This document shows positions 9,189-11,608 of a stretch of 19,591 bases of DNA, in pieces. The stretch lies in IMG/VR virus record IMGVR_UViG_2703718871_000002. One strand, written 5' to 3'. The notes below the pieces were generated by a model. That model saw only the letters and a program-made list of their open reading frames with translations. It did not search any database and was not told where the DNA came from. The translations under genes were made by a program, and so were the position numbers. Every line of letters begins with the position of its first letter. The stretch's first letter is position 1. The stretch comes from a virus (lineage: Duplodnaviria; Heunggongvirae; Uroviricota; Caudoviricetes).

Positions 9189-10142
9189 TCATTCAGTAGA
9201 GTAGGGGCCAAGAAATCGCACTCCGTTGAAGTGAATAAGATGAGAAGGTGCATCAGCCACCCATACCTCTGTTTCCCATGCGATTTCACCAAGATATCGC
9301 CCCATGATGGAGCGATTTGGAAAAGCGGTCACATAGACAAGTCCGGCTGTTGATCCGGCAAACAGCCTGGCAAGCTCAGCATGCCGCTTCCCATCAACCG
9401 GTCCATGACTGGTGACAGACTCAACCAGTAGCAGCCAGTTTTTCGCAGTAAAATGTAGCACCACATCTGGCATTTTACCGTGTGAATCCACATCAACACC
9501 TAGCCCGGCCAGCAGTGGAGCGTCGAAGTAGCCCCACTTTTCGCCAGTGTCGCCAGCATAGACCAGCACGCTACCCGGAGCAAAACGTGGGGCGAAGTCC
9601 TCTATTATGGCACGGATAAGTTCGCTGTGCTCGCCGGGACTGAGGGTTATTTGCTGGCCCGCAGCAATTTCAACAGGGATACGATTCTGTTCGCGCTCCT
9701 TAGCATAGCGGGTAACCAGCGTTTCACGCTCGGCTAAATAGGTTGCAAGGCTATCGTGCCATGCCGGGCTGCCGAAAGTGCGTAGCATGGACAGAGCAGC
9801 AGGTTCGATCTGATAAACAGCCTTCGGGCTGTTCACTGGGCGATCGGGCTTGTCCGGATTGTAGAGGGCTACTCCAGCAGCGCAGAACTGATGCATAGAC
9901 TGGCGGCGGAATGTCTCACGAGTATTGGGTGCGTAGACCTTGCCGTAGTGCTCCCGAACCCAATTCATGATTGGTGTAATGCCCACAAGCGGATTTTCCG
10001 CGTCGGCCCATGCTTTTCCCGGTGTGAGGTTCAGGAGTGCCAGCAAACACAAAGCAGAACGCTCATTCTGCTGCGCTCTGGGCAGGCCTAAGGATGCTAT
10101 AATTTGCTGAGCGGCCTCAATATAATCATTTTGGTTGTTCAT
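9189..10142 (-). CDS. putative Type II restriction endonuclease (BsuBI/PstI-like, by size and context)
   Basis: 317 aa; ATG overlaps stop of the upstream methyltransferase (ATGA); followed by an intrinsic terminator. Nuclease catalytic motif not confidently identified by eye. Confidence 0.55.
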   Translation of the reverse strand: MNNQNDYIEAAQQIIASLGLPRAQQNERSALCLLALLNLTPGKAWADAENPLVGITPIMNWVREHYGKVYAPNTRETFRRQSMHQFCAAGVALYNPDKPDRPVNSPKAVYQIEPAALSMLRTFGSPAWHDSLATYLAERETLVTRYAKEREQNRIPVEIAAGQQITLSPGEHSELIRAIIEDFAPRFAPGSVLVYAGDTGEKWGYFDAPLLAGLGVDVDSHGKMPDVVLHFTAKNWLLLVESVTSHGPVDGKRHAELARLFAGSTAGLVYVTAFPNRSIMGRYLGEIAWETEVWVADAPSHLIHFNGVRFLGPYSTE

Positions 10143-11608
10143 GCAGTCAGAGCTCCTAGCTTAGCGTCAATATGTTCTTGCGTGAGAGTTTCTTGTTGCA
10201 TAGCCCACTTGCCAAGCTCTATCAGAGTGTCACGGCTTGGGTACTTAATCATCTTGAGGTCGGTTGCATTGACCTGTGTATGCCCGTTGAAGCGACGGAA
10301 GTACTTATCCACTGCGGTAGTGTTCAGGAACACGGCCAAGCCACGGGCCAGCGCCTCGGGTAACCCATGTTTGTTCTCATGAAACACGTTCATGTGATTT
10401 TCAAATCCCAACACTGAATACTCACTGAAGGTAGCAGGATCAACGACGCTTGCTACCACTCGGCGCTTTTCCTCCTTCGACGAGAAACGACGCACCACAC
10501 AATAAAAACCGTTCGGGTAAAGCCACTTTTCTGTCTCGTCGTTGCGCATGATTGCGTTGGGTTTCTTCAAACCTTCCACAGGCCAGACAGTGCTACTCAT
10601 ACTCAAATGGCTCGGGTAGATCAGGGGAACAGTTCCTTCTTCTGGCATGCTGCGCAAATGAGCTTTCAGTCGGAAATCAACTATCGGTCCGGTCGATACC
10701 TTCACGCCAATATCAGCCAGCGAACATTGTACGGCAGATGATAACTCAATGGTGCTTTTCTCGAGCGTGGTCGGCACATGAATAAACCGCTCCGAATCGT
10801 CCGGGTACACAATCTGGTCAAATGGGTGTTCGTAGGTGACCAGGTCAAAAAAGCTATCATCGGTCGAAGTTGTGACTGTAACAGCCTCCTGACGGCCTCC
10901 ACGCTCCAGGCGGATGATAATATTTTCCTGCAACACATCGTCATCCCTGAAAGCTTTGCTACGTGATTCGAACAAATGAATATGGCGGATTGCTGCCCGC
11001 TCAAGTATGAAATTACGGAACGGACGGTAATACGGTCCGTTGCAGAAACTACGTGGGATTATGGCCACTATCTGCCCGCCAGGTGCAACCTCACCTACAG
11101 CCAGTGCAACAAAGGCGGAATACAGATTTACCGTCTCGATACCGACAGTGCGAAGAGCCTGCCGGTGGGCTGACTGGCTATTGATCTTCTTGTAAGGCGG
11201 ATTAAGTATTGCATGGGTATAACCTCGATCCTGTAGACCTTCGGCGGTTGCCAGCTCAATATAATCCCCTTCGATGATGCGGGGCGTCACTCTCCTGTAC
11301 CCGGTTAAGTGCTTCGCAAGGTGACCACACAGCTTTTTGTCGATTTCGTAGGCTGTTGCCTCGACAGACTCAAAGCCAAACTCGCCAACCAGCCAACGGT
11401 CGAGGAAGGCGCAAGACAGTGCGCCTAAACCAGCGCCTGCGTCCAGTAGACGGCAAGTTTTCATTGTGCTCGGTGGAAACAAGGAGGCCATAAAACGGGC
11501 CACGCCAGAAGGCGTCATGAACTGGCCGAACTCTGCTTTGTGTTTACGCGCGGTACGGGGAGACAGCTCGCGACGCACGCTGTCTGCGACGTCTAGCTTT
11601 TGAAGCAT
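10139..11608 (-). CDS. N6-adenine DNA methyltransferase, gamma class (Eco57I/PstI-like)
   Basis: 489 aa; AdoMet motif I LLDAGAGLGAL followed by motif IV ILNPPYKK, with a long C-terminal presumed target-recognition region. AAAGAGGA upstream of ATG at 11608. Confidence 0.85.
   Translation of the reverse strand: MLQKLDVADSVRRELSPRTARKHKAEFGQFMTPSGVARFMASLFPPSTMKTCRLLDAGAGLGALSCAFLDRWLVGEFGFESVEATAYEIDKKLCGHLAKHLTGYRRVTPRIIEGDYIELATAEGLQDRGYTHAILNPPYKKINSQSAHRQALRTVGIETVNLYSAFVALAVGEVAPGGQIVAIIPRSFCNGPYYRPFRNFILERAAIRHIHLFESRSKAFRDDDVLQENIIIRLERGGRQEAVTVTTSTDDSFFDLVTYEHPFDQIVYPDDSERFIHVPTTLEKSTIELSSAVQCSLADIGVKVSTGPIVDFRLKAHLRSMPEEGTVPLIYPSHLSMSSTVWPVEGLKKPNAIMRNDETEKWLYPNGFYCVVRRFSSKEEKRRVVASVVDPATFSEYSVLGFENHMNVFHENKHGLPEALARGLAVFLNTTAVDKYFRRFNGHTQVNATDLKMIKYPSRDTLIELGKWAMQQETLTQEHIDAKLGALTA

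What the first reader, a model, noticed from the sequence alone, without database searches (positions are those of the whole stretch)
9189..11608. Putative PstI/BsuBI-like Type II restriction-modification pair in the rexAB slot, downstream of cI
Directly downstream of the lambda-like cI gene, on the same strand, are a 489-aa gamma-class N6-adenine methyltransferase (motif I LLDAGAGLGAL, motif IV ILNPPYKK) and a 317-aa ORF whose ATG overlaps the methylase stop (ATGA at 10139-10142). A minus-strand intrinsic terminator (9132-9158) closes the unit just before the predicted pL. In lambda this slot holds rexA-rexB, the lysogen-expressed exclusion genes, so this looks like a defence cargo expressed with the repressor in the lysogen. 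The endonuclease call rests on size, coupling and context; I could not see its catalytic motif by eye. The segment also looks GC-richer than its flanks.
Basis: partly seen in the sequence, partly recalled or inferred. Interest (0 to 1): 0.7.

Follow-up and report, generated by a model that had tools for sequence, protein, structure and literature searches.

The report
Known EcoGIII restriction-modification system in prophage
The two genes downstream of the phage repressor are a real PstI-type restriction enzyme and its protective methylase, but this exact pair (EcoGIII, from the Shiga-toxin phage of the 2011 E. coli O104:H4 outbreak) has already been characterised experimentally, so the finding is correct but not new.

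Summary
cI (11703-12416), a 489-aa methylase (10139-11608) and a 317-aa ORF (9189-10142) lie in tandem on the minus strand, and the last two share an ATGA stop/start overlap.

The 317-aa protein matches both Pfam BsuBI/PstI endonuclease domains (E 1e-54 and 5e-61). It aligns end to end with the SdaI crystal structure (E 1e-77) and keeps every family-invariant residue. The methylase is a gamma-class N6-adenine enzyme (Eco57I domain; DAGAGLG then NPPY).

Both proteins are 100% identical to those of phage P13374 from outbreak E. coli O104:H4. This is the published EcoGIII system. Papers read here report that it methylates and cleaves CTGCAG, fully methylates lysogen chromosomes, restricts lambda-like phages, cuts plasmid transfer about 10^4-fold, and alters expression of about 1,900 genes.

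The "rexAB slot" reading is also supported. An intrinsic terminator (9170->9139) is followed by repressor-operator-like sites, a pL-like promoter and a phi80-like nutL.

The 2.47-kb cassette (9181-11649) also occurs on small plasmids of Pseudomonas, Aeromonas and enterobacteria, which fits a mobile module captured by the phage.

Co-transcription with cI is inferred, not shown. Verdict: correct, already known, low interest.

The parts
11703..12416 (-). cI repressor, 237 aa (N-terminal HTH plus C-terminal S24 autopeptidase). First gene of the leftward immunity unit.
   Evidence: ORF. Pfam HTH_3 (E 8e-10) and Peptidase_S24 (E 1e-28). Annotated as cI in P13374 and many other phages.
12420..12438 (.). 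Palindromic operator-like site in the cI-cro intergenic region (ATCACC-N4-GTTATAT on both strands). A pR-like promoter lies at 12459-12487(+).
   Evidence: Pattern search: 4 matches in the window against 0.29 expected, and 0 of 200 shuffles reached 4. Promoter scan.
11609..11702 (-). 94-nt cI-M spacer. It holds a 16-bp hairpin (11651-11691), a small hairpin (11626-11641) and an AAGAGGA Shine-Dalgarno before the M ATG. No promoter-like or terminator-like hit on the minus strand.
   Evidence: Sequence. Fold: -39 kcal/mol, z = -3.7. Consensus scans.
10139..11608 (-). M.EcoGIII, 489-aa gamma-class N6-adenine DNA methyltransferase (DAGAGLG at aa 56-62, NPPY at aa 136-139). Reported target is CTGC(m6A)G.
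   Evidence: Pfam Eco57I, E 3e-9, above cutoff. PADLOC MTase_II full length, E 5e-248. PHROG 1600. 100% identical to the P13374 methylase. Specificity taken from PMC6602927 and PMC3893438.
9189..10142 (-). R.EcoGIII, 317-aa BsuBI/PstI-family type IIP endonuclease. N-terminal wHTH DNA-binding domain (aa 7-143) and C-terminal PD-(D/E)XK-variant catalytic domain (aa 155-307). Its ATG overlaps the M stop codon (ATGA).
   Evidence: Pfam PF17728 (E 1e-54) and PF06616 (E 5e-61). PADLOC REase_II, E 2e-168. SdaI 2IXS, E 1e-77. Invariant K202, P225, D226, E241 and V243 in alignment A2. 100% identical to the P13374 endonuclease.
9181..11649 (.). Extent of the mobile R-M cassette: the stretch that is about 84% identical at DNA level to M-R modules on small plasmids of Pseudomonas, Aeromonas, Citrobacter, Serratia, Morganella and E. 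coli.
   Evidence: blastn against the plasmid collection, with the same end points in more than 19 plasmids. The M-R order and the 4-bp overlap are conserved there.
9139..9170 (-). Intrinsic terminator closing the cI-M-R unit: 8-bp GC-rich stem (9149-9170) followed by UUUUUCUUU.
   Evidence: Terminator scan. Sequence. Fold. It lies outside the plasmid-homologous cassette.
9018..9137 (-). oL/pL-like region. Operator-like sites at 9121-9137 (2 mismatches) and 9019-9035 (exact). Promoter-like TTTACA-17-TATATT at 9046->9018.
   Evidence: The promoter aligns with the annotated pL of phage phi80.
8751..8938 (-). nutL-like leader, about 94% identical to the annotated nutL of phage phi80. boxA TGCTCTTTAACA lies at about 8927-8938.
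15506..15511 (.). The only CTGCAG (EcoGIII target) site in the window.

Best explanation
This is the EcoGIII type IIP restriction-modification system, a PstI isoschizomer of the BsuBI/PstI family. It is carried as a 2.47-kb cargo cassette in the immunity region of an Oslovirus-type lambdoid prophage, the lineage that includes the Stx2a phage of E. coli O104:H4.

SHOWN by the literature on identical or 99%-identical proteins:
- M.EcoGIII methylates the adenine of CTGCAG on both strands.
- R.EcoGIII cuts unmethylated CTGCAG.
- In lysogens the host chromosome is fully methylated.
- Incoming unmethylated lambda-like phage DNA and conjugating plasmid DNA are restricted.

SHOWN from the sequence here: the genes lie cI -> M -> R on one strand. 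An intrinsic terminator follows, then oL/pL and nutL. This is the position lambda gives to rexAB and phi80 gives to gene 40A.

INFERRED:
- The pair is transcribed by read-through from the repressor promoter. The 94-nt cI-M spacer has no promoter-like or terminator-like signal. The cassette brings only 41 bp of its own upstream sequence.
- Placing M first, with R translationally coupled through the ATGA overlap, keeps methylase ahead of nuclease.
- As with other type II R-M systems, loss of the prophage would expose the cell to post-segregational cutting. That would also stabilise the prophage.
For: Gene structure and the overlap.

Family assignment: Pfam; PADLOC, full length; PHROGs; SdaI structure, E 1e-77; invariant catalytic-domain residues kept.

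Identity: M and R are 100% identical to phage P13374 of O104:H4. The DNA is 99.9-100% identical in 74 phage records and more than 120 E. coli genomes.

Function, from papers:
[quoted passage not shown] 100% of CTGCAG sites are methylated in two lysogens. The system protects against lambda-like phages. 1,951 genes are affected.
- PMC3893438: 98.8% methylation in a strain with the prophage system, against 0% in a strain without it. The R gene is reported as biochemically active.
- PMC7736820: the cloned EcoGIII system restricts pESBL transfer about 10^4-fold and does not cut when the A is methylated.

Slot architecture.

Linkage to cI: in all 98 phage records with the system, it sits next to a cI gene, across two immunity types.
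Against: The primary paper (Fang et al. 2012, PMC3879109) could not be read here. The experimental claims therefore rest on three papers that cite or extend it.

Identity was tested against P13374 from the same outbreak, not against strain C227-11 itself.

No transcript data were examined. Co-transcription with cI, the role of the spacer hairpin, and the M-before-R timing argument are all inferences.

The promoter and terminator scans are simple consensus matches. Promoter hits were at chance level: 4 found against 3.8 expected.
Confidence: 0.93

Rival explanations
1. The pair works mainly as a prophage-addiction and epigenetic module, not as anti-phage defence. Loss of the prophage would leave stable R and diluting M, which kills segregants. 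CTGCAG methylation would reprogram host gene expression.
For: Deleting the system is reported to change expression of about 1,900-1,951 genes and to affect growth (PMC6602927). The same cassette sits on small plasmids next to resolvase, partition and toxin-antitoxin genes, the typical company of stability modules. It is 100% linked to cI in all 98 phage records.
Against: Restriction of lambda-like phages and of incoming plasmid DNA has been shown directly. Defence is therefore demonstrated, while addiction has not been tested in anything read here. The two roles do not exclude each other.
Confidence: 0.3
2. The R-M cassette is an autonomous transcription unit with its own promoter. It lies next to cI by accident of insertion and is expressed independently of the repressor promoter.
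For: The cassette moves between replicons as a unit with sharp boundaries. A strong 16-bp hairpin directly after the cI stop codon could terminate or process the cI transcript. Lambda itself has an internal promoter (pLIT) in the rex region (from memory).
Against: Only 41 bp upstream of M belong to the cassette. That stretch and the rest of the spacer contain no promoter-like match on the minus strand. On the plasmids, M starts 9 bp after the upstream resolvase gene, so it appears to depend on read-through there too. The hairpin has no U-tract.
Confidence: 0.2
3. The nuclease is decayed or inactive in this window, leaving a solitary methylase that only protects phage DNA from PstI-type systems in new hosts.
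For: Many phage methylases are orphans. The residue aligned with SdaI Lys (EAVK) is Thr here (ESVT).
Against: R is full length and 100% identical to the O104:H4 protein, which is reported as biochemically active. In an 8-sequence family alignment, Thr at that position is the norm and the SdaI Lys is the exception. K202, P225, D226, E241 and V243 are invariant and all present. The cloned system restricts plasmid transfer about 10^4-fold.
Confidence: 0.02

Closest known systems
EcoGIII R-M system (M.EcoGIII / R.EcoGIII) of the Stx2a prophage of E. coli O104:H4 (Fang et al. 2012, Nat Biotechnol 30:1232; phages P13374, TL-2011c, VT2phi_272, PA2/PA8, Ss-VASD)
   Same: Protein sequences are identical (489/489 and 317/317 against P13374). 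The position downstream of cI is the same, as are the flanks from 8410 to 17325 (98.8% identity).
   Different: The R-M system itself shows no difference. The host prophage in this window lacks stx2AB and has a different Q-type antiterminator. It is therefore an stx-negative relative of the published phages.
BsuBI and PstI (CTGCAG) type IIP R-M systems, Pfam PF06616/PF17728
   Same: Same endonuclease family and two-domain layout. Partnered with a gamma-class m6A methylase. Same recognition site according to the literature. The tandem M->R order matches what I recall for BsuBI.
   Different: Not compared residue by residue with the BsuBI or PstI proteins here. From memory, the PstI genes are divergently transcribed. 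A divergent arrangement was seen here only in a 42%-identical Vibrio plasmid homologue.
SdaI restriction endonuclease (PDB 2IXS; CCTGCAGG)
   Same: Full-length alignment at E 1e-77, about 42% identity. Same wHTH N-domain plus PD-(D/E)XK-variant C-domain.
   Different: SdaI recognises the 8-bp site CCTGCAGG. It has Lys where EcoGIII and most family members have Thr244.
Lambda rexA-rexB, and phage phi80 gene 40A: lysogen-expressed cargo between cI and oL/pL
   Same: Same genomic slot and strand: after cI, closed by a terminator, followed by oL/pL and nutL. Same presumed logic of a lysogen-expressed function that excludes other phages.
   Different: No sequence or mechanistic relationship. Rex is an abortive-infection system (from memory), whereas this is a classical restriction-modification pair. 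Co-transcription with cI is established for rex (from memory) but only inferred here.
Plasmid-borne M-R cassettes of Pseudomonas, Aeromonas, Citrobacter, Serratia and E. coli plasmids (e.g. pFAHZU31-KPC, NZ_KJ541070)
   Same: 84% DNA identity over exactly 9181-11649 and 94-95% protein identity for R. Same M->R order and the same 4-bp overlap.
   Different: On the plasmids the cassette follows a resolvase gene and sits among partition and toxin-antitoxin genes, not behind a phage repressor.

Membership tests
BsuBI/PstI family type II restriction endonuclease | C-terminal catalytic domain PF06616 (BsuBI_PstI_RE) | tested here: met
   E 4.6e-61, 205 bits against a cutoff of 27; aa 155-307 cover profile positions 1-153 of 154.
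BsuBI/PstI family type II restriction endonuclease | N-terminal HTH DNA-binding domain PF17728 (BsuBI_PstI_RE_N) | tested here: met
   E 1.2e-54, 184 bits against a cutoff of 27; aa 7-143.
BsuBI/PstI family type II restriction endonuclease | Family-invariant catalytic-domain residues (PD ... E-x-V variant of PD-(D/E)XK, plus a conserved Lys) | tested here: met
   K202, P225, D226, E241 and V243 are invariant in an 8-sequence alignment spanning 23-95% identity and including SdaI. Which residues are catalytic is inferred from conservation and from my memory of the SdaI paper. It was not tested.
BsuBI/PstI family type II restriction endonuclease | Cleavage of CTGCAG, blocked by m6A at the A | not testable with these tools
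   Reported for the identical or 100%-identical R gene in PMC3893438, PMC6602927 and PMC7736820.
Gamma-class N6-adenine DNA methyltransferase (cognate M of a type II R-M) | AdoMet-binding motif I (xDxGxGxG) N-terminal to catalytic motif IV (NPPY), with the target-recognition region C-terminal | tested here: met
   DAGAGLG at aa 56-62 and NPPY at aa 136-139 of 489. Pfam Eco57I PF07669 at 37.5 bits against a cutoff of 25.3. PADLOC MTase_II PDLC03227 full length, E 5e-248.
Gamma-class N6-adenine DNA methyltransferase (cognate M of a type II R-M) | m6A methylation of CTGCAG in cells carrying the gene | not testable with these tools
   SMRT methylomes: 100% of CTGCAG sites methylated in 95JB1 and 95NR1 (M 99% identical). 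98.8% methylated in RM13514, against 0% in RM13516, which lacks the system.
EcoGIII (specific named system) | Sequence identity to the M and R proteins of the O104:H4 2011 outbreak Stx2a prophage | tested here: met
   489/489 and 317/317 identical to P13374, from outbreak isolate CB13374. O104:H4 genomes match the DNA at 100.0%. Strain C227-11 itself was not compared directly.
Lysogen-expressed immunity-region cargo ('rexAB slot') | Located between cI and oL/pL, on the same strand as cI, with a terminator before pL | tested here: met
   The order is cI, M, R, terminator 9170->9139, operator-like sites 9121-9137 and 9019-9035, pL-like promoter 9046->9018, and phi80-like nutL 8938->8751.
Lysogen-expressed immunity-region cargo ('rexAB slot') | Co-transcribed with cI from the maintenance promoter | not testable with these tools
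   Indirect support only. The 94-nt spacer has no promoter-like or terminator-like site on the minus strand. Only 41 bp of cassette-derived upstream sequence is present. Lysogens show full methylation.

The most novel reading that the evidence does not exclude
Because the R-M pair appears to be wired to the repressor's own transcript, its dosage would track the repressor state. On SOS induction, cI cleavage would shut off M-R synthesis while the phage and host replicate new unmethylated CTGCAG sites. Residual R would then cut host (and possibly phage) DNA. This would feed back on SOS, on prophage induction and, in the stx-positive relatives, on toxin output. The structured cI-M spacer (16-bp hairpin at 11651-11691) would set the cI:M:R ratio. 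Nothing found here tests this idea, and nothing excludes it.
Probability: 0.08. Interest if true: 0.45.

Novelty: already known. Interest (0 to 1): 0.12.

Why it matters
As a discovery it does not matter much. The system was named, cloned and phenotyped in 2012 and has been seen repeatedly in STEC methylomes since.

It does matter as a calibration point. A reader working from raw sequence alone correctly called a type II R-M pair, its family, its likely recognition site and its lambda-like genomic logic.

The biology itself is of medical interest. This prophage cargo rewrites the methylome of outbreak E. coli, blocks superinfecting phages and incoming plasmids, and travels with the Stx2a phage lineage.

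- The exact cassette boundaries (9181-11649), shared with broad-host-range small plasmids.
- An explicit map of the terminator, oL/pL and nutL that defines the slot.

Tried and rejected
1. Primary paper. I tried to read Fang et al. 2012 by DOI and by PMC3879109. It is not held, so I used three papers that cite or extend it.

2. rRNA methyltransferase. I suspected the 2023 NAR paper on a "prophage encoded rRNA methyltransferase" in phages PA2 and PA8 might re-assign this methylase. It does not. That enzyme is gp5, an MT-A70 protein near the int end of the phage.

3. Catalytic motif. I worried that ESVT in place of the SdaI EAVK meant a dead nuclease. An 8-sequence family alignment shows Thr is the norm, and the invariant residues are all present.

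4. CTGCAG avoidance. The window has 1 site against about 5.5 expected (P about 0.03). However, many 6-bp palindromes are equally rare in the window. Whole phage P13374 has 12 sites against about 17 expected, or 0.197 per kb. There is no convincing avoidance.

5. Operators. A first 14-mer comparison of oR with the region left of R found nothing useful. The motif ATCACC-N4-GTTATAT, seen by eye, then tested as significant.

6. N gene. I looked for a phi80-type N gene downstream of the phi80-like nutL and found none.

7. Phages with this cI but without the R-M. None exist in the collection. All 98 records have both.

8. NCBIfam gave no above-cutoff family for either protein.
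Full report
**Observation**

The window carries three tandem ORFs on the minus strand:
- cI at 11703-12416 (237 aa)
- a 489-aa ORF at 10139-11608
- a 317-aa ORF at 9189-10142

The reverse complement of 10139-10142 reads ATGA, so the start of the 317-aa ORF overlaps the stop of the 489-aa ORF. An AGGAG lies 10 nt upstream of that ATG.

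Two details need correcting.
- The intrinsic terminator has its stem at 9149-9170 and its T-tract at 9139-9148 on the minus strand, not at 9132-9158.
- The GC enrichment is modest: 52.4% for the R-M segment against 48.6% for the window and 47.2% and 50.0% for the flanks.

**What the proteins are**

The 317-aa protein matches both Pfam domains of the BsuBI/PstI endonucleases. PF17728 (N-terminal HTH) scores E 1.2e-54 and PF06616 (catalytic) scores E 4.6e-61, each covering essentially the whole profile. PADLOC places it full length in a type II REase model at E 1.6e-168. Against solved structures it aligns end to end with SdaI (2IXS) at E 1.2e-77.

That alignment raised one concern. Where SdaI reads EAVK, this protein reads ESVT. 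I collected homologues from plasmids at 23-95% identity and aligned them with SdaI. K202, P225, D226, E241 and V243 are invariant. Thr at position 244 is the family norm, and the SdaI Lys is the outlier. The catalytic domain is therefore intact.

The 489-aa protein carries the Eco57I methylase domain above Pfam's cutoff. It matches a type II MTase PADLOC model over its full length at E 5e-248. Motif I lies before NPPY and a long C-terminal region follows, which is the gamma-class order.

**Identity**

The 2.6 kb around the pair is 99.9-100% identical to 74 phage records. These include Stx2a phages P13374, TL-2011c, VT2phi_272, PA2/PA8, phi191 and Shigella phage Ss-VASD. It also occurs in prophages of 140 of 5,426 complete E. 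coli genomes, always on the chromosome. Both proteins are 100% identical to those of P13374, the Stx2a phage of the 2011 O104:H4 outbreak strain.

**Literature**

This system is published as EcoGIII.
[quoted passage not shown] It reports 100% methylation of CTGCAG in two O111 lysogens, protection against lambda-like phages, T4 resistance to restriction, and effects on 1,951 genes.
- PMC3893438 reports 98.8% CTGCAG methylation in an O145 strain that carries the prophage genes, against 0% in a sister strain that lacks them. It states that the R gene is identical to the biochemically active C227-11 gene.
- PMC7736820 used the cloned EcoGIII system. It restricts pESBL transfer about 10^4-fold and does not cut when the A of CTGCAG is methylated.
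- The primary paper (Fang et al. 2012) is not held.
- A 2023 paper on a prophage rRNA methyltransferase in PA2 and PA8 concerns a different gene, the MT-A70 gp5.

**The slot**

Window 8751-8938 is about 94% identical to the annotated nutL of phage phi80, boxA and core included. In phi80 the leftward order is cI, gene 40A, three operators with pL, nutL, then N.

In the window, a promoter-like TTTACA-17-TATATT at 9046->9018 aligns with the phi80 pL. A 17-bp motif, ATCACC-N4-GTTATAT, occurs as follows:
- exactly in the cI-cro intergenic region (12422-12438, palindromic)
- exactly over the pL -10 region (9019-9035)
- with two mismatches just after the terminator (9121-9137)

That is four matches against 0.29 expected, and no shuffle out of 200 reached four.

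The layout is therefore cI, M, R, terminator, oL/pL, nutL. The R-M pair occupies the lysogen-side cargo slot. All 98 phage records with the R-M have it directly downstream of a cI. A second immunity type (for example phage F039) shares only the C-terminal half of cI plus the R-M.

**Origin of the cassette**

DNA homology to plasmids is about 84%. It covers exactly window 9181-11649 in more than 19 small plasmids of Pseudomonas, Aeromonas, Citrobacter, Serratia, Morganella and E. coli. On those plasmids the M-R order and the 4-bp overlap are conserved, and M follows a resolvase gene by 9 bp.

The terminator and the large hairpin after cI lie outside this homology. Together with the GC shift, this marks a 2.47-kb mobile module captured by the phage.

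**How it most likely works**

Shown, through the literature on identical proteins:
- M methylates CTGCAG in the lysogen.
- R cuts unmethylated CTGCAG on incoming DNA.

Inferred: transcription enters from cI. The 94-nt spacer has no promoter-like or terminator-like hit on the minus strand. The cassette contributes only 41 bp upstream of M. The spacer folds into a strong 16-bp hairpin without a U-tract (-39 kcal/mol, z = -3.7), and its role is unknown.

Also inferred: M-first order plus stop/start overlap keeps methylase ahead of nuclease. The system also stabilises the prophage by post-segregational killing.

**Site counts**

The window has one CTGCAG against about 5.5 expected. Many 6-bp palindromes are equally scarce there. 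Whole phage P13374 has 12 sites against about 17 expected, or 0.197 per kb, which is close to host density. The phage does not clearly avoid its own site. It presumably relies on self-methylation.

**Verdict**

The object is the already characterised EcoGIII system, so novelty is nil and interest is low.

The remaining open point is the transcriptional wiring to cI and what happens to the M:R balance on induction. That is a modest question.

Noticed in passing
window 8489-8676 (-): Two Rfam sRNAs sit between nutL and the next gene: IsrK (8601-8676, 58.7 bits) and C4 antisense RNA (8489-8576, 77.1 bits). They lie directly upstream of a 260-aa Rha/Ash/anti-repressor-like ORF (7790-8572). A promoter-like site at 8711->8683 would start transcription at about the IsrK 5' end. 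The hairpin plus T-run at 8621->8598 fits an IsrK terminator. The arrangement looks like a P1/P7-style C4-controlled antirepressor module placed in the pL operon.
   Followed up: partly
window 8751-8938 (-) and 7500-8750: A phi80-like nutL (94% identity, consensus boxA TGCTCTTTAACA) is present. No phi80-N homologue or N-like small ORF follows it (tblastn found no hit). The next genes are the Rha-like ORF and kil (7507-7719). What protein, if any, uses this nut site is unexplained.
   Followed up: partly
window 18176-19591: This prophage lacks stx2AB. P13374 positions 23880-25536 (stx2A and stx2B) are replaced by window 19124-19450, which contains an STnc100 sRNA match (19162-19352, 139 bits). 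It lies just after three tRNA genes (Met-CAT as called by ARAGORN, annotated as tRNA-Ile in the closest genome; Arg-TCG; Arg-TCT; 18834-19085). The closest genome, STEC2018-553, shows the same stx-less layout.
   Followed up: partly
window 17346-18176 (+): The late antiterminator is a 276-aa Q-like protein (PHROG 127, E 2e-95). It is not the 144-aa Q of P13374. Homology to P13374 breaks between 17325 and 18357.
   Followed up: no
window 9189-11608 (profile-level observation): PHROG 1639 (838 aa) and PADLOC PDLC03359 (840 aa) are single profiles that cover the methylase and then the endonuclease in one polypeptide. Fused M-R versions of this system therefore exist elsewhere.
   Followed up: no
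window 11651-11691 (-): A 16-bp perfect hairpin lies immediately after the cI stop codon, with no U-tract, within a spacer that folds at -39 kcal/mol (z = -3.7). It lies outside the plasmid-homologous cassette, so it belongs to the phage side. Its function is unknown.
   Followed up: partly
L009 180-3310, L010 845-3466, L007 3467-4168: Distant plasmid homologues vary in organisation. A Burkholderia plasmid has an HTH (possible controller) gene before M-R. A Vibrio plasmid has M and R divergent. A Haematospirillum plasmid has a TIR-domain gene right after R.
   Followed up: no
window 1858-2736 (-): A 292-aa PAPS-reductase-domain protein (PHROG 424, E 6e-93) lies in the early-left region. The MT-A70 methyltransferase studied as an rRNA methylase in PA8 lies just outside the window's left end in the closest genome.
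   Followed up: no
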